Shown here: positions 34,201 through 61,200 of the stretch, piece by piece
Position numbering within the stretch: the stretch's first letter is position 1
Layout: each line of letters begins with the position of its first letter
From: Saccostrea cucullata
Lineage: Eukaryota
Direction: 5' to 3'
DNA length: 64,000 nt
NCBI RefSeq assembly: GCF_032062105.1
Contig: NW_026926516.1
Location: 186,001 to 250,000 of the forward strand
Made by a program: the position numbers

Positions 34201-37200
34201 AGATATTTTACTTGTGTGTCATAAAATACACTTTTATAGTTAATTAGTTAATTTAATTAGTAATGGTGTGTTAAGATATCCTTGTTGGGAAGATAGGTAG
34301 TCCTCTGACATATTCATCCAGTTTGTTTTGAAACAATTCACTTGTGATGGGTTGTCCTAATTCACATTGTGGATTCCGAATCACATATTCCACATATATC
34401 TGGAATTTAAAACAAATGAAATAGGTGAAGATAACGAAAAATGGCCAATTTAAAAAATATATACATATATTGAGAATATAAATCTGTGAAGTGAACTAAA
34501 ACAAATACCCCTGGAAATCATAGAGGTGGGATCAGGTGCCTGGGAAGATTAAACATCCCTTGTTGACCTGTAGGGCTGGGAATGTATATCGAAATATCGA
34601 TAGGATGATACACATATCGATACACTTGAAAAAATATCGAATTATTGCCCCAAAAATTTGACTTCTGTTTACTTTGTGTATTAACATTTGGGTTTAATAT
34701 AAAAAATAAATATTAAGTTAAATATAAATATAGATATGAAATAAATAATAAATTTCACCACTTGAGTAAAATGTTTTTGTTTTACAACATATAAACAACT
34801 ATTTTGAATAAATTATTCTCATTTGCAAAGAAATAATTTGTTTATTTCAATGTAAAAAAAGGTTTCATAAGCTATTAAACATCTTGTGATACATATCGTA
34901 TCGTGGCTCAAATATTGTGATACAAATCGATATAGAAAAAGTTGTATCGTCCCAGCCCTATTGACCTGTCACAAATGTTTGACATACCCTTTAATAAAGC
35001 CCTTTAACTTATTTTAAAACAATTCTATTTGATAGTAATAATATATGTCTCACATAAAAGAAGCAAATAAAATATAGTAAACAACTCACAGTGCTGTAGA
35101 TTTGATGTAAAACATCTTTGATGTTCCCCACTGATAAATCAGTTGTCATGATAAACTTCATACCACTAGGTGTCTCATAGAAATTCAGTTTGTATCTGCT
35201 AGTTCTAAAGCTTGAAAATCCTTCTTTTCTGTTAAAAAGTTAAGGTAAATCAAGCAATTTAAAATACCTGGTATTTGAATGAGAAAAGCCTTACAAATAA
35301 AGTCACGCCTGCTAATCGATCACTTGCACAACCAGCAGTTGTGTATAACAATCAAAAGAGATCGATTTCCGGTTGTGCACAGGTTGTAAATGGACTCGAT
35401 TCAGGCAATAATTTATATTTTTATTAAAATATAAGAATGTGATTCCATGAGCAATTTATTTTTCTTTAATTTTACACTCTCATAAAATGCAGTGATTGTC
35501 GATTAGCGACTATATTTGTTTTGAAGCAAGGACTGGTAGAGCGAAAACGCTGATTGAAATCAGTATTCGCCGACTAAAATTCATTTTAATCTCAACTAAC
35601 CTTGAATATTCAATGTCCACCATGAGTATGCTACAAGTGCATCCTATCCACCAAAATTGGGACTTCGATTTGTGTATAATTTGACAAATATTAGAAGAAA
35701 ATAACATTGCTTGTGCATGCGATCATTCAGTTGTGAAAGAGATCTCGGGTTGTGCATGAGATGAAGGACAAAAAGTTTCAAACTTTACGAATAAAATTAA
35801 ACATTATATAATTATAAGGTAGTCTTGCAAAATTTAAAACATAAAGCTATAGAATTTTCTTGCAAATAAGTTGAATTTGTGAGAAAAAAAGATATATAAG
35901 TAAACTGTTGAAGTATATCTGTTAGGGGAGGGGGTTAAAGTTTCAGTTACAATCAATATAATTACAGTAAAAAATTATGTGTGTATTATTTAAATCACAA
36001 ATCTTATGTGAATTATCCAATGCATCTTTAATATGATTATTCCGTATGCAAAAAAAAAAATAAATAATAAAAAAGAGAGATAAAATAAAATTAAAAAAAC
36101 AGCATATACTGGGCAGTATATCATTTTCTTTCAGTATGAAATTGTTTAACTCAAACATATCTTACCTTTATTTGGCGGTACTTCAACAAAAGTGGAGGGA
36201 AAGACCGAATTTTTCATGCTTTCATTTCATATATACATGTATTTTATAGTAAAAGTGCTGTCTGTGAAAAAAATAAGAGACAGGCTCTCGATGATATGTG
36301 TTTGCCAAGGGGTAAATATTTCCTGGTGTTTTGAAGCTAGGTATCCTGAATTTCGTTATCGACATGGAAAGGATCAAGATGACAACACCACATTACAGGT
36401 GCTTCTGGACAGGACACCCCCCGGACTTGTTGGGCACTTTTTTTCTCACAAATTATATTCATTACATTTATTCATCATGTGTACCATAGGGGAAAATCGT
36501 CAAAAATCCAAAATAATCGTTCAATAAAACATATCCCTATTAAACATTCCAAATAAAATTCATGTAAAGCACCAAATCAGCCGCAAAATTAATAATTTCA
36601 AAAATTACTAGTACTTTTTTTATTTCAAAAGCATCAATGCATGGGAAGCACAAAATATTCAAAGCTGAAATAGATCAATTTCATTTCAGACTGTCTTCAA
36701 AGCAAAAATAAATAAAATGTTTTTTTTAATTAAATAGAAAATTTTAGTGAATTTGTTCATCAAATGGAGTCATCAATGAATCAATAAAAAAGTCAATGAT
36801 GAATTATAAGAATGTATGAATGAAGATGTAGGTCTCTCAAGATGAACCACATGCCGAAACCCTGGATCTTTATCACGTGATAATACCCATGGTTTCTGCA
36901 GTGGGCTAATCAAGGCGCGTAGTTTGATGGAAAATGTAAGAAAAATATTTGTTGTCACATCTGTAGCACATTTAGCTGCAGATCTGTAGCGTTATGGTTT
37001 TATATATTTGTCTTTGAGCCAATATATATATTTTATCCACCTTTCAACCATATATAGTTGTCTCTACAGGCAATAAAATCTCTAGAAGTTAATTTTCAGC
37101 AATATAAAAAATAATTTTAATCAAGCGAGTTTATCACTTGTAGAGACGAGTATAAAGAGTTGGGAGGTGTATAAAATATACATATTGGCTACAGAATGTG

Positions 37201-58200: not shown

Positions 58201-61200
58201 ATTTTTTTTTTAGATATTATATGAAGCAGTTAAAATAATTTTTTTTTCCAAGAGTAAATTACATGATTCTTTTTTTCTAAATGTTTCTAGTAGGAATTTA
58301 GTACAATTTCAAGAGGTACATCAAGTGGCTATTTTGAGGAATTTAGTGAAATCTGCCCATTTGGCTAATACTGAAATTCTGTGCTTTTTTGAGATTAACA
58401 TTTGAGGATGTGTTCTTATAATGGACTAATATGCTCTTTTTTAGGGTGCCTCTGAGGGTCAGCCAAGAGGGGATAAACACGGAGGTAAACCGCCCCTGAA
58501 CCATCAGAAGAAACCCGAGAGGAAGGTGGCGTCTGGTAGTAAAGCAGGTCATCAAAATAAATCCAAGTCGGCCTGGAAGTGAAAGTACAGTCAGTGATAG
58601 AAATGCGGAAGGTTCAGTCCAAGCCTGTCAGAAAGTGAAAGTAGGAAGGACCAGTGTTCAGTGTGTCTTCTATGTCAATGTGAAAATGAAAGTAAGACTT
58701 ATGCGGTATATTGAAAGTACAAGTTGTGTGGTGTATCAGGTCAGAGAATGAAATTCCCAGGTCAAGGTCAAAAAGTCCACAAATTGTTACCAGAAAACAA
58801 ATGGAAACAAACTTGTGTGTCTGGAGGTCTTTGTGTTTACGTCTTATTTATTCAATATTTTCCCCAAGATTCACAGAAAGGTTATAATAACTGTAAGGTT
58901 TTGTAATTTTTTTTCTTTTAAATTTTATTTTAATGCCTGAATCTTTTTTTACAGATTGTAGATCTTTATTTCCTTTAAAATACTGAATAGACTTCAAACA
59001 AACTTGTGCCATTTTAATATTTATAACCGATGTGTACATATATTCTGATTTGATTCTTTTTTTTCCAAAATATCTTGCATTTCTTTGAATATGAATCTGG
59101 CAGCTTTTGCACTTTTTTCAAGATTAATTTTACTGTTTAATGAAGTTTTATTATCTCACTGTCATATACTTTAAAAATAACTTTATATTAGTGACATCAC
59201 TTTCCTATGCTGAATATTTCAAAGAATGACATGTTGTAGTATTCTAGTACTGTTACAAGAACAAAGGATTCAATTGACATGTAGCTTGGTTGTAATCTCA
59301 GGGGTCTGATCTATAGTATGTAAATGATGTGGCAACTGAAATCTAGAATTAAATACCAGTGTTTGTGTCATTAATTTCTTTTACTAATAACATCAATTGA
59401 ATATTACTAATTGTTTAGAAAGGTTGTCAAGATATAGTATAGTACAGTATTTATGTTTGTGAAATCAAGTTGAAAATGATCAAATGTTTTCCTTTTTTCC
59501 ACTTCTGAATTTCTCTTTTTGAAATGTAAACTTACGTACCGGTAGATACTGGATGTTAGATAGACACATCATTTGTGTTTTGTTTCCCTGAAATAATTGC
59601 ATAACATATATGGAGAATTAGAGAAAAATAGAAAATAATGTTTTTATAGATACCTGTACATATCTGTGGAGATGAGTTTATCTGTGAATTGAATTCAAAG
59701 ATACAGCTTAACAGATGTAAAGATGTTGAATTATTTGAACGTGGATTTTTTGCTATTGAACCAAGAGCCCAAGTTCTACTAGCTGTTATTTGATCCACAT
59801 AAATATTTATTTATAAAAATCATATTTATTTTATATTCCGTCCTAAATAAATGAAAGAGAAAGATGGATTTTTTTTTCATTTTCTACTGAAAAGTATTGC
59901 ACTTTAATGCCAGATTCAGTGTTTGATATAAGAATTGTACAGTTACTCTATGTGATCAAAGCAACATCACATTTTGCAGTTAAGGGTGTTTCTGTCATGT
60001 AGCATGTATAGTAAAGGAATGACTTATAGAAGTGTTAATTATTAGAGGCAATTTGACACTTTAAATGACTAAATAGAACAAGCTAATCCAGTGAATCTGT
60101 GTCCCCATCTAAAGGAAAATATGCGTGGATTTAGGGGGGGGGGTCACTATAGGGAGGGCAGGCAGGTCATAGAGAGTTGTAGTATAAATGTTAATTCCAA
60201 AAGCTTGAGATATTGCCTGGAAATGAGAGTTTTACAAAACACAAACAGAAAGATATGAATTGACAATCTTAATTTTTGACCTGAAAATCAATATGGTACT
60301 TCCTTAGGTGAAAGGGAGTTGTGGCATAAGAATTTCATTGCAAAAGTTCCAAGGCTTCTCCAGATACTGCACAAAAAGGGAAAAGCTATAACAGGCAGAA
60401 TTTTTTAATTTATGACATTCACCTTTTGACTTCAAAATCAAAAGTGATCTTCCTTAGGCCATAGGGAGTTACCGTAATATAGAATTCACATCAAAGGCTT
60501 TTTGAGATTGCACGGAAACAAAATCTCATTCAGTCTATCACAAAAACTTTAACCTTGATCACAACTTTAGAATGAGAAGAGGTAGGACTTTCATATTGTA
60601 ACATGTAAGGGTGCCCATTGGTGTCCATTTTTATACCCACCATAACTCCTTAAACAGCAAGCATGTGATGTAATGATATGGTACATTCAAGACACAAAAA
60701 GGATGTAGATACATCTAAATGAACATATTAATTTACTTGTTTCCCATAAAAATGAATAATTGATCAAAGGGTACCCAATTGGAGATTTAGTAACGGAAAG
60801 ATTTAAAGGAGTTCTTGTTAAGCAAGTTTTCAGCTTCGAATAAGTTTCATTTTATTGTGCAAACCAAAGACTTTAATACCCGTAACTTCTAATGCTTACC
60901 AACATTTTTAGCTCACCTCAACATAGTTGGGGGGAGCTTATGTGATACCCTCGACGTCGATGTCGGCGTTAAAGTTAGGGTTAAGGTAAAGTTTTTTGGA
61001 GCAGTTTTCTTTTTAATTACTTCTGTGTCTTTTATTGATAAGACATGCATGGAAGATGGTTTTAGTGTGTTTCATTGTACCAGACAAAGTTTCAGATGCT
61101 GCAATTTCTGCAAAGGAATGATCAGGTTAATGTTTTTGGAGCAAGTTATCATATTTGGTGCAGTTTTAGGTGTAGGTTTCATTTCCGAGTAACTACAAGC

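What the first reader, a model, noticed from the sequence alone, without database searches (positions are those of the whole stretch)
34271..58582. TRAPPC1 and centrobin head-to-head: possible microsynteny shared by a mollusc and human
Seen: TRAPPC1 (minus, ATG 40513) and a centrobin-like gene (plus, ATG 43425) diverge from a short region carrying ETS (CGGAAGT) and YY1-like motifs. Known, from recall: human TRAPPC1 and CNTROB are divergent neighbours on 17p13.1, and ARRB2 lies on the same arm. Inference: the pair and its bidirectional promoter date to the bilaterian ancestor and may reflect co-regulation of TRAPP trafficking with centriole/ciliary function.
Basis: partly seen in the sequence, partly recalled or inferred. 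Interest (0 to 1): 0.72.

Follow-up and report, generated by a model that had tools for sequence, protein, structure and literature searches.

The report
TRAPPC1 beside a centrobin-like gene
Two real genes, TRAPPC1 and a large coiled-coil gene that is probably centrobin, sit back to back here as they do in human and mouse, a likely but untested case of an old conserved gene pair of a well-known kind.

Summary
The sequence facts hold. On the minus strand lies a four-exon, 145-aa TRAPPC1 gene (ATG 40513, stop 34271), backed by collinear Sybindin matches and TRAPPC1-only PDB hits. On the plus strand lies a 23-exon, about 1,550-aa gene (ATG 43425, stop 58582). It has long low-complexity ends, a 350-aa helical centre and no Pfam domain.

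Two CGGAAGT sites (40523, 40702) and one GCCGCCAT (41299) lie between the genes. The start codons are 2,911 bp apart, and much of that spacer looks like transposon debris. "Short region" is therefore true only if the plus gene has an untranslated leader exon, which is plausible but not shown.

Papers show TRAPPC1 and CNTROB adjacent in human and mouse.

The key claim, that the plus-strand protein is the centrobin orthologue, could not be tested. Architecture and my recall of human centrobin favour it.

Gene order in other phyla, and co-regulation, were not testable here.

Verdict: partly supported. It is probably one more member of the known class of conserved head-to-head pairs. Interest is modest.

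The parts
40415..40513 (-). TRAPPC1 coding exon 1 (ATG at 40513; 99 nt)
   Evidence: Sybindin profile 1-31, E 3.1e-07, 31 bits against cut-off 25. Donor gtacat.
39361..39431 (-). TRAPPC1 coding exon 2 (71 nt)
   Evidence: The in-frame piece 39354-39422 hits Sybindin 34-54, E 2.1e-04, 21.8 bits, below the cut-off of 25. Splice sites.
35090..35228 (-). TRAPPC1 coding exon 3 (139 nt)
   Evidence: The piece 35069-35224 hits Sybindin 63-106, E 5.2e-11. Its only PDB hits are TRAPPC1 chains 2j3t_C and 7b6d_C.
34271..34399 (-). TRAPPC1 coding exon 4 with stop codon (129 nt)
   Evidence: The piece 34274-34393 hits Sybindin 110-138, E 2.9e-08. The CDS totals 438 nt, 145 aa.
40514..41400 (.). Likely promoter region. 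It is CpG-undepleted and lies directly upstream of TRAPPC1.
   Evidence: CpG o/e is 1.10 for 40401-41400, against 0.52 for the window and 0.48 for the plus-gene body. No transcript data, so the promoter role is inferred.
40523..40529 (+). ETS-type core CGGAAGT, 9 nt from the TRAPPC1 ATG
40702..40708 (+). Second ETS-type core (CCGGAAGT)
   Evidence: Pair spacing of 179 bp is reached by 9 of 300 shuffles.
40709..40774 (+). Candidate untranslated leader exon of the plus gene (hypothetical; start not defined)
   Evidence: The donor CAG|gtaaac at 40774 scores 7.4, 4th of 153 GT sites in the spacer. Not shown by any transcript.
41299..41306 (+). YY1-like GCCGCCAT, next to a TTACGTCA stretch
   Evidence: The only copy in the window. 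Sequence read. It abuts inverted-repeat arm I5, 41308-41330.
41890..42122 (.). MITE-like element with 46-nt terminal inverted repeats, in the spacer
   Evidence: Inverted repeat I1, 78% complementary. The arms are also found by self-BLAST.
42720..43321 (.). Second inverted-repeat element in the spacer
   Evidence: Inverted repeats I2 and I3, 74-88% complementary.
43392..43424 (+). Candidate 5'UTR part of the first coding exon, after a possible acceptor (ttttag|G)
   Evidence: The acceptor scores 8.2, 5th of 138 AG sites. An in-frame stop lies directly before 43422.
43425..45011 (+). Plus gene coding exon 1 (1,587 nt, 529 aa, low-complexity)
   Evidence: One open frame of 539 codons in DNA of about 0.35-0.40 G+C. 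12% P+G and 18% S+T. No Pfam family.
45116..45197 (+). Plus gene exon 2 (82 nt)
   Evidence: Splice sites and phase. No Pfam family.
45367..45463 (+). Plus gene exon 3 (97 nt). Added on revision to restore the phase with the strong donor at 45197.
   Evidence: No Pfam family.
45618..45780 (+). Plus gene exon 4 (163 nt)
   Evidence: No Pfam family. No PDB hit.
46227..46262 (+). Plus gene exon 5 (36 nt, 12 aa). Start of the helical centre.
   Evidence: Too short for any search.
47008..47088 (+). Plus gene exon 6 (81 nt)
   Evidence: No Pfam family. No PDB hit.
47347..47463 (+). Plus gene exon 7 (117 nt)
   Evidence: No Pfam family. No PDB hit.
47789..47887 (+). Plus gene exon 8 (99 nt)
   Evidence: No Pfam family (the piece searched was 47768-47887).
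48008..48163 (+). Plus gene exon 9 (156 nt)
   Evidence: Only sub-threshold Pfam hits, for example Cep57_CLD at 16.8 bits against cut-off 28.
48949..49062 (+). Plus gene exon 10 (114 nt)
   Evidence: No Pfam family.
49240..49335 (+). Plus gene exon 11 (96 nt)
   Evidence: No Pfam family.
49806..50002 (+). Plus gene exon 12 (197 nt)
   Evidence: Folded alone, it gives one helix over residues 2-64, pLDDT 97.5. Atlas returns only generic coiled-coil clusters. Pfam hits are sub-threshold only.
50176..50241 (+). Plus gene exon 13 (66 nt). Added on revision.
   Evidence: Best cassette candidate in its intron, with combined splice score 17.5. Sites shown. No Pfam family.
50349..50436 (+). Plus gene exon 14 (88 nt). 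End of the helical centre.
   Evidence: No Pfam family. No PDB hit.
51286..51476 (+). Plus gene exon 15 (191 nt, S/T-rich)
   Evidence: No Pfam family.
52166..52842 (+). Plus gene exon 16 (677 nt, low-complexity)
   Evidence: No Pfam family.
53075..53180 (+). Plus gene exon 17 (106 nt)
   Evidence: No Pfam family.
53368..53452 (+). Plus gene exon 18 (85 nt)
   Evidence: Only a sub-threshold Pfam hit.
53726..53804 (+). Plus gene exon 19 (79 nt)
   Evidence: No Pfam family.
54018..54106 (+). Plus gene exon 20 (89 nt)
   Evidence: No Pfam family.
57489..57679 (+). Plus gene exon 21 (191 nt)
   Evidence: Pfam hits are sub-threshold only. PDB hits are at chance level only. Atlas gives no usable hit.
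57986..58103 (+). Plus gene exon 22 (118 nt)
   Evidence: No Pfam family.
58445..58582 (+). Plus gene exon 23 with stop codon (138 nt; basic, P/G-rich tail)
   Evidence: No Pfam family.

Best explanation
The interval holds two real, divergently transcribed protein-coding genes.

Shown:
- A four-exon, 145-aa TRAPPC1 (Bet5) gene lies on the minus strand.
- A 23-exon, about 1,550-aa gene lies on the plus strand. Its product has about 640 aa of low-complexity N-terminus, a 350-aa proline/glycine-poor helical centre and about 560 aa of low-complexity C-terminus. It has no known domain.

Inferred:
- The plus gene is this animal's centrobin orthologue.
- The roughly 300 bp next to TRAPPC1, with its two ETS-type sites inside a CpG-undepleted block, is a TATA-less housekeeping-type promoter for TRAPPC1.
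- That region may also fire in the other direction, into a short untranslated leader exon (donor near 40774) spliced to the acceptor at 43392. That would make it a true bidirectional promoter.
- The same two genes are neighbours in human and mouse, so the simplest reading is a 5'-5' pair inherited from the bilaterian ancestor. It would belong to the class of conserved ancestral microsyntenic pairs. Such a pair persists because a break between closely spaced or shared promoters would damage one of the genes. A functional tie between trafficking and centrioles is not required.
For: TRAPPC1:
- Pieces of all 4 exons hit Sybindin collinearly.
- The exon-3 piece hits only TRAPPC1 chains in the PDB.
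- The CDS is 145 aa with canonical splice sites.

Plus gene:
- The 23 GT-AG exons are in consistent phase and total 4,653 nt.
- The centre exons have 0-3% P+G and 45-65% E/K/R/Q/D/L. The flanks have 7-24% P+G.
- Exon 12 folds as one 63-residue helix, pLDDT 97.5.
- 0 of 22 exon translations reach a Pfam cut-off.
- This matches how the first centrobin paper describes the protein: a central coiled coil, non-coiled ends, and a 'unique protein' (PMC2171251, passages).
- Planarians are said to have lost centrobin, which implies it predates spiralians (PMC3623764, passage).

Neighbourhood in mammals.

Promoter cues:
- Two CGGAAGT sites lie 179 bp apart at the TRAPPC1 5' end.
- CpG o/e is 1.10 there, against 0.48-0.68 in the gene bodies.

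The class exists and is common in slowly evolving genomes:
- Amphioxus and Lottia keep 448-492 conserved pairs.
- 54.8% of such pairs are 5'-5' in human (PMC3514665, passages).

From recall only, with no call behind it: short blocks in exons 2, 4, 5, 6, 7, 14, 21 and 23 resemble human centrobin, in the same order.
Against: - No reference-based test of centrobin orthology was possible.
- At 1,550 aa the protein is 1.7 times the 903 aa of human centrobin. The coiled-coil-plus-disorder architecture is generic.
- The ATG-to-ATG distance is 2,911 bp, above the under-1-kb signature of bidirectional promoters quoted in PMC3514665.
- About two thirds of the spacer carries transposon-like inverted repeats.
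- The proposed leader-exon sites are only 4th of 153 donors and 5th of 138 acceptors, so they are not distinctive.
- A second promoter-like spot near 41299 and a strong donor-like GTAAGT at 43392 allow other transcript structures.
- The CGGAAGT count in the window is not significant.
- No intermediate lineage was examined.
Confidence: 0.55

Rival explanations
1. The two genes are true orthologues of human TRAPPC1 and CNTROB and the adjacency is inherited. It persists only because this genome and vertebrate genomes rearrange slowly. The genes have separate promoters, one near 40.5 kb and one near 41.3 kb or 43.3 kb. They share no elements and are not co-regulated.
For: - The start codons are 2,911 bp apart.
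- Transposon-like insertions have been tolerated between the genes.
- A second promoter-like CpG-rich patch, with GCCGCCAT and a TTACGTCA stretch, lies at 41299-41345.
- Slowly evolving genomes keep many pairs (PMC3514665).
Against: - In 500 Myr or more, neutral retention of one particular adjacent pair is uncommon.
- The 5'-5' orientation is the one enriched among conserved pairs.
- In human the two genes abut. Their start coordinates are 1.7 kb apart, and one CpG probe is assigned to both.
Confidence: 0.25
2. The plus-strand gene is a different, lineage-specific or otherwise unrelated coiled-coil protein. The resemblance to the human TRAPPC1-CNTROB arrangement is then only apparent.
For: - No tool gave a centrobin match. 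0 of 22 exons reach a Pfam family.
- 5 of 23 exons were searched in the PDB with no real hit.
- The Atlas gave nothing for exon 21, and for exon 12 only generic coiled-coil clusters, such as an AKAP9 fragment at 0.89.
- The protein is 1.7 times longer than human centrobin.
Against: - These blanks are expected, because no centrobin model or structure exists in those libraries.
- The architecture fits the published description.
- From recall only, collinear block similarity to human centrobin.
- By my own estimate, not a tool result, an unrelated gene would land beside TRAPPC1 in the same orientation as in mammals with odds of about 1 in 10,000 per gene pair.
Confidence: 0.12
3. The genes are orthologous, but the adjacency arose twice, once in the mollusc lineage and once in vertebrates.
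For: Nothing here excludes it, because no intermediate lineage was looked at.
Against: By my own estimate, not a tool result, the chance for a given pair is about 2/N genes, further reduced by the matching orientation. Hundreds of truly inherited pairs are known.
Confidence: 0.03

Closest known systems
Human and mouse TRAPPC1-CNTROB neighbour pair at 17p13.1 / mouse chr 11
   Same: The two genes are immediate neighbours: consecutive table entries 7930345 and 7932081 (PMC11876076), and the mouse order Gucy2e, Cntrob, Trappc1, Kcnab3 (PMC4978889). One CpG probe is assigned to both genes (PMC6411983). Here too, TRAPPC1 and the candidate centrobin gene are immediate, divergent neighbours.
   Different: - The divergent strands in human are my recall. 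The papers give no strands.
- Here the start codons are 2.9 kb apart, with transposon-like DNA between them.
- On the other side of TRAPPC1 lies a beta-arrestin gene, not a KCNAB3-like gene.
- The protein here is about 1,550 aa against 903 aa.
Conserved ancestral microsyntenic pairs (CAMPs) of Irimia et al. 2012, co-regulated 5'-5' subclass (for example HSPE1-HSPD1)
   Same: Two unrelated genes in 5'-5' orientation, adjacent in distant animal phyla. A housekeeping-type promoter region lies between them (PMC3514665, passages).
   Different: - Membership needs the pair in several phyla, which was not examined here.
- The main text of that paper names neither TRAPP nor centrobin. Its pair list is in a supplement I could not open.
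- The spacer here exceeds the under-1-kb signature unless a leader exon exists.
Centrobin (CNTROB; Drosophila Cnb)
   Same: A central coiled coil with non-coiled N- and C-terminal regions, and no other recognisable domain (PMC2171251).
   Different: It is much longer, with a 529-aa first coding exon. Sequence relatedness, tubulin binding and daughter-centriole localisation are all untested.
ETS/GABP- and YY1-driven bidirectional promoters of mammals
   Same: ETS-type CCGGAAGT cores close to the start of a housekeeping gene, and a YY1-like GCCGCCAT in the same spacer. A published example is NRF-2(GABP)/YY1 cooperation at the PREPL-C2ORF34 pair (PMC2713978; title and start of abstract only).
   Different: Binding and start sites are unknown here. 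The YY1-like site is about 790 bp from the TRAPPC1 ATG and abuts an inverted-repeat arm. That these motifs are enriched in bidirectional promoters in general is my recall.

Membership tests
TRAPPC1 / Bet5 (Sybindin-like family, PF04099) | The Sybindin-like domain covers essentially the whole protein | tested here: met
   The four exon pieces match profile positions 1-31, 34-54, 63-106 and 110-138 of 140, in order. 3 of 4 are above the cut-off.
TRAPPC1 / Bet5 (Sybindin-like family, PF04099) | About 145 aa, without the inserted domain of the paralogue TRAPPC4 | tested here: met
   The CDS is 438 nt, giving 145 aa. The matched PDB TRAPPC1 chains are also 145 aa. That TRAPPC4 carries an insert is recalled.
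TRAPPC1 / Bet5 (Sybindin-like family, PF04099) | The closest solved relatives are TRAPPC1, not TRAPPC4 | tested here: met
   For exon 3 only: 2 of 2 PDB hits at E 0.01 or less are TRAPPC1, 2j3t_C and 7b6d_C.
Centrobin (CNTROB / Cnb) | Significant, reciprocal sequence similarity to a known centrobin | not testable with these tools
There is no Pfam family, no PDB chain and no Atlas cluster. A literature search for peptide strings found no centrobin text.
Centrobin (CNTROB / Cnb) | A central coiled coil flanked by non-coiled N- and C-termini (PMC2171251) | tested here: met
   Exons 5-14 (350 aa) have 0-3% P+G. The flanks have 7-24%. Exon 12 is one long helix. This is a generic feature.
Centrobin (CNTROB / Cnb) | Size near 900 aa (human 903 aa) | tested here: not met
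   The model gives 1,550 aa. The excess is mainly the 529-aa first exon and the 225-aa exon 16. Size is not a strict criterion between phyla.
Centrobin (CNTROB / Cnb) | Tubulin binding by the C-terminus, and localisation to daughter centrioles | not testable with these tools
   Needs experiments.
Conserved ancestral microsyntenic pair / bidirectional gene pair | The two genes are adjacent and 5'-5' in this genome | tested here: met
   ATG 40513 on the minus strand and ATG 43425 on the plus strand. No other gene was detected between them: the ORFs there have no Pfam family.
Conserved ancestral microsyntenic pair / bidirectional gene pair | The orthologues are adjacent in a distant phylum (vertebrates) | tested here: inconclusive
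   Adjacency of TRAPPC1 and CNTROB in human and mouse is in print. Orthology of the plus gene is unproven.
Conserved ancestral microsyntenic pair / bidirectional gene pair | The pair is present in several independent phyla | not testable with these tools
   No eukaryotic genome collection was available. The supplement of PMC3514665 was closed.
Conserved ancestral microsyntenic pair / bidirectional gene pair | Start sites less than 1 kb apart (the bidirectional-promoter signature) | tested here: inconclusive
   The start codons are 2,911 bp apart. A leader exon that would bring the start sites within about 200 bp is plausible but undistinguished.

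The most novel reading that the evidence does not exclude
TRAPPC1 and centrobin form a head-to-head pair that predates the protostome-deuterostome split. It has been held together for more than 500 million years by one shared ETS-driven bidirectional promoter, so that a core TRAPP subunit and a daughter-centriole/ciliogenesis factor are expressed in step in dividing and ciliated cells.
Probability: 0.2. Interest if true: 0.5.

Novelty: new member of a known kind. Interest (0 to 1): 0.32.

Why it matters
If the plus-strand gene is centrobin and the pair is found in other phyla, this adds one more deeply conserved 5'-5' gene pair to the several hundred already catalogued. 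It would also give a compact, testable invertebrate promoter for asking why such pairs resist rearrangement. In addition it would supply a spiralian centrobin, a gene that planarians are reported to have lost (PMC3623764). It would not change any general picture. Conserved head-to-head pairs, and ETS sites in their promoters, are well established.

Tried and rejected
- **Pfam.** 22 of 23 plus-gene exons were searched; exon 5, at 12 aa, was too short. None reached a curated cut-off. The best sub-threshold hits were MXRA7_helical (E 0.0032), RNA_pol_Rpb2_5 (E 0.0033) and Cep57_CLD (E 0.007). I take these as coiled-coil noise.
- **PDB.** 5 of 23 exons were searched. Four gave nothing at E 10 or less. 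Exon 21 gave lysozyme (E 0.051) and a de novo protein (E 0.74), which is chance.
- **ESM Atlas.** 2 of 23 exons were searched. Exon 21 gave no usable hit, and exon 12 gave generic coiled-coil clusters.
- **Peptide strings in papers.** A full-text search for three short peptide strings from exons 6 and 7 found 3 papers, none about centrobin.
- **Wasted search.** One search was badly set (min_terms 2). It returned only oyster papers without the word centrobin and says nothing either way.
- **Synteny in print.** Three searches for TRAPPC1-CNTROB synteny or a shared promoter found only gene lists. The coral paper PMC13440232 was irrelevant.
- **First gene model.** It was replaced after I found exon 3 (45367-45463) and exon 13 (50176-50241). 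Two further cassette candidates, in the introns after exons 20 and 22, look non-coding and were left out.
- **First splice-site scoring.** The run used wrong TRAPPC1 exon ends. One search supersedes it.
- **Leader exon.** Splice scores do not single it out, so it stays a hypothesis.
- **CpG profile.** It does not place the plus gene's start. The whole 3-kb spacer is undepleted.
- **Rfam.** No RNA family anywhere in the window.
- **Self-BLAST.** No other copy of the spacer in the window.

Full report
**What was checked, and how**

The window has no N. It is AT-rich: G+C is 0.27-0.42 in 2-kb steps. I read the spacer directly and listed stop-to-stop frames. I then built exon models from splice sites and reading phase.

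I did not make, search or fold any joined protein. That step is left out, so all family and structure results below are per exon and weaker than a full-length search would be.

The only genome collection on offer holds bacteria and archaea. As a result, orthology and gene order in other animals stayed unchecked.

**TRAPPC1 (minus strand): confirmed**

- The four coding exons are 40513-40415, 39431-39361, 35228-35090 and 34399-34271. All have GT-AG introns and consistent phase. They total 438 nt, which gives 145 aa plus stop.
- In-frame pieces of the four exons match Pfam Sybindin in order, at profile positions 1-31, 34-54, 63-106 and 110-138 of 140. Three of the four pass the curated cut-off. 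The 23-aa piece of exon 2 scores 21.8 bits against a cut-off of 25.
- Three of the four pieces (exons 2-4) were a few codons off the final exon ends, but in frame; the exon-1 piece was the whole exon.
- The exon-3 piece finds exactly two PDB sequences at E 0.01 or less. Both are 145-aa TRAPPC1 chains: 2j3t_C (E 2.2e-16; 30 of 46 identical by my count of the printed alignment) and 7b6d_C (E 7.2e-11; 22 of 46).

**The plus-strand gene: real, large, coiled-coil, no known domain**

- The frame opening at 43422 follows a stop, and its first ATG is at 43425.
- My first model had 21 exons and 1,497 aa. It relied on one weak donor.
- Re-reading the sequence gave an extra exon at 45367-45463, which restores the phase with the strong donor at 45197. 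It also gave a cassette exon at 50176-50241 with strong sites.
- The final model has 23 GT-AG coding exons, 4,653 nt and 1,550 aa, ending at 58582. Small exons may still be missing.
- The protein divides into three parts:
  - Exons 1-4 (643 aa) are rich in P, G, S and T.
  - Exons 5-14 (46227-50436, 350 aa) have 0-3% P+G and 45-65% E/K/R/Q/D/L.
  - Exons 15-23 (557 aa) are again low-complexity, with two short helical-looking exons and a basic tail. Exons 3 and 13 were added after that table was made.
- Exon 12, folded alone, is a single helix over residues 2-64 at pLDDT 97.5.
- None of the 22 exon translations long enough to search reaches a Pfam cut-off.

**Is it centrobin?**

This is the hinge of the finding, and I could not test it against a reference.

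- No Pfam family for centrobin turned up.
- Five of the 23 exons gave no real PDB hit.
- The Atlas gave nothing for exon 21 and generic coiled-coil clusters for exon 12.
- A full-text search for three short peptide strings from exons 6 and 7 found no centrobin text.

Three things can be said in its favour.

- The architecture matches the original description of centrobin: 903 aa, a coiled coil in the centre, non-coiled ends, and "a unique protein" with only weak coiled-coil homologies (PMC2171251, passages). This is a generic match.
- Centrobin is reported lost in planarians, so it should be older than the spiralians (PMC3623764, passage).
- From my own recall of human centrobin, with no call behind it, short blocks in exons 2, 4, 5, 6, 7, 14, 21 and 23 resemble it, in the same order. 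This is a lead, not a test. It is the main reason I put the orthology at roughly 0.85.

Against it, the protein is 1.7 times longer than the human one.

**The spacer**

- The start codons are 2,911 bp apart (40514-43424).
- CGGAAGT lies at 40523, 9 nt from the TRAPPC1 ATG, and at 40702. Both copies are on the plus strand.
- The window holds 5 copies against 2.25 expected, and 12 of 100 shuffles reach 5. The count alone therefore means nothing.
- A pair as close as 179 bp occurs in 9 of 300 shuffles, and this pair sits exactly where a promoter is expected.
- The other three copies lie at 26.5-31.6 kb, in another CpG-undepleted block. The motif simply tracks unmethylated DNA.
- GCCGCCAT (YY1-like) occurs once, at 41299. 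The expectation is 0.14, and 12 of 100 shuffles have at least one. It lies beside a TTACGTCA stretch and abuts one arm of an inverted repeat.
- From 41308 to 43321 the spacer is full of nested inverted repeats. One is a 233-bp element with 46-nt ends, at 41890-42122. I read these as MITE-like insertions.
- CpG o/e is 1.10 at 40401-41400 and 0.99 at 41401-43424. That compares with 0.52 for the window, 0.48 for the plus-gene body and 0.68 for the TRAPPC1 body. The spacer therefore looks unmethylated throughout, which fits a promoter region but does not place the start sites.

**Is there one shared promoter?**

- A candidate exists: the donor CAG|gtaaac at 40774 and the acceptor ttttag|G at 43392, 33 nt before the ATG.
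- I scored these with matrices built from this locus's own 23 introns. Those were the 20 introns of my first plus-gene model, before exons 3 and 13 were added, plus the 3 of TRAPPC1.
- Both sites are of median strength. But they rank only 4th of 153 GT sites and 5th of 138 AG sites in the spacer.
- Other structures are possible. One is a start near the CpG-rich patch at 41.3 kb. Another is a start just upstream of 43425.
- "Bidirectional promoter" is therefore a reasonable hypothesis and not an observation.

**What is known elsewhere**

- Human TRAPPC1 (7930345) and CNTROB (7932081) are consecutive 17p13.1 entries in a table of PMC11876076 (passage).
- One methylation probe is annotated "TRAPPC1; CNTROB" (PMC6411983, passage).
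- A mouse chr-11 interval lists "Gucy2e, Cntrob, Trappc1, Kcnab3" in that order (PMC4978889, passage).
- A horse list contains both genes but is not ordered (PMC8532986).
- The divergent strands in human are my recall. No paper that I saw states them.
- No paper in the library discusses this pair's synteny or shared promoter.
- Irimia et al. 2012 (PMC3514665, passages) report that slowly evolving amphioxus and the mollusc Lottia keep 448-492 conserved ancestral pairs. They also report that 54.8% of such pairs are 5'-5' in human, and that spacers under 1 kb mark bidirectional promoters. The main text names neither TRAPP nor centrobin. The pair list is in a supplement that I could not open, so the pair may already be listed there.

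**The ARRB2 remark**

- An arrestin gene lies on the minus strand at the left end of the window. Its exon at 4990-5304 hits Arrestin_N at E 5.8e-11. Further exons lie near 6529 and 7553.
- That exon matches beta-arrestin-1 (best E 1.1e-34) and beta-arrestin-2 (best E 6.3e-34) equally well. It is best called a single beta-arrestin, related equally to ARRB1 and ARRB2.
- That ARRB2 lies on 17p is recalled. As macrosynteny evidence it is weak.

**Reading**

- Best explanation (0.55): two orthologous genes inherited as a 5'-5' pair and kept because their promoters are shared or closely spaced.
- Rivals: inherited but neutrally retained, with separate promoters (0.25); not centrobin (0.12); convergent juxtaposition (0.03).
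- My estimate that a chance match of one adjacent pair is about 2/N genes is inference and comes from no call.
- The proposed functional link between TRAPP trafficking and centrioles or cilia is not needed and has no support from this sequence. The only link in what I read is that centrobin contributes to ciliogenesis (PMC7870141, passage). The TRAPPII-Rabin8 connection is recalled.

**The taxon**

No tool here could test "mollusc". The DNA is clearly not mammalian, given the TRAPPC1 identity above and the base composition.

**Verdict**

Even if true, it is one more member of a well-described class. Interest 0.32.

Noticed in passing
window 4990-5304, about 6529 and about 7553, minus strand: A beta-arrestin gene lies tail-on to TRAPPC1, with its 5' end towards TRAPPC1's 3' end. 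One exon hits Arrestin_N (E 5.8e-11) and matches beta-arrestin-1 and beta-arrestin-2 equally in the PDB. Its first exon and promoter were not located.
   Followed up: partly
window 56034-57481 and 60905-62504: Two copies, 86-91% identical, of a roughly 1.45-kb element built around a 147-bp tandem repeat (arrays at 56287-57140 and 61162-62233). The first copy lies in the plus gene's longest intron and ends 8 nt before the acceptor of exon 21. The second lies downstream of the gene.
   Followed up: partly
window 63104-63670: A 166-bp tandem repeat, 3.4 copies, 93% matches, with long open frames on the minus strand. From recall, a period of about 166 bp is typical of an oyster satellite. Not tested.
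   Followed up: no
window 35303-35777 and 38444-38942: Two copies of a roughly 0.5-kb element, 91.6% identical and in opposite orientation, lie inside the 4.1-kb second intron of TRAPPC1.
   Followed up: no
window 24001-32000: A block with undepleted CpG (o/e 0.6-1.1, against 0.52 for the window) holds the other three CGGAAGT sites (26553, 28840, 31559). It also has inverted copies of a repeat at about 27.4-27.7 kb and 32.0-32.4 kb. It may hold the arrestin promoter or young transposons.
   Followed up: no
window 11441-12104: A tandem array with nested periods of 29, 51, 80 and 124 bp, inside what is probably an arrestin intron.
   Followed up: no
window 50635-51141: An intron of the plus gene, between exons 14 and 15, holds a (TGTCTGTT)n microsatellite and a 146-bp tandem repeat of 2.9 copies.
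   Followed up: no
window 41290-41345: A CpG-rich patch (9 CpG in 41201-41400, o/e 1.28) holds GCCGCCAT and TTACGTCA. It looks like a second promoter-like spot, but it abuts an inverted-repeat arm and may belong to a transposon.
   Followed up: partly
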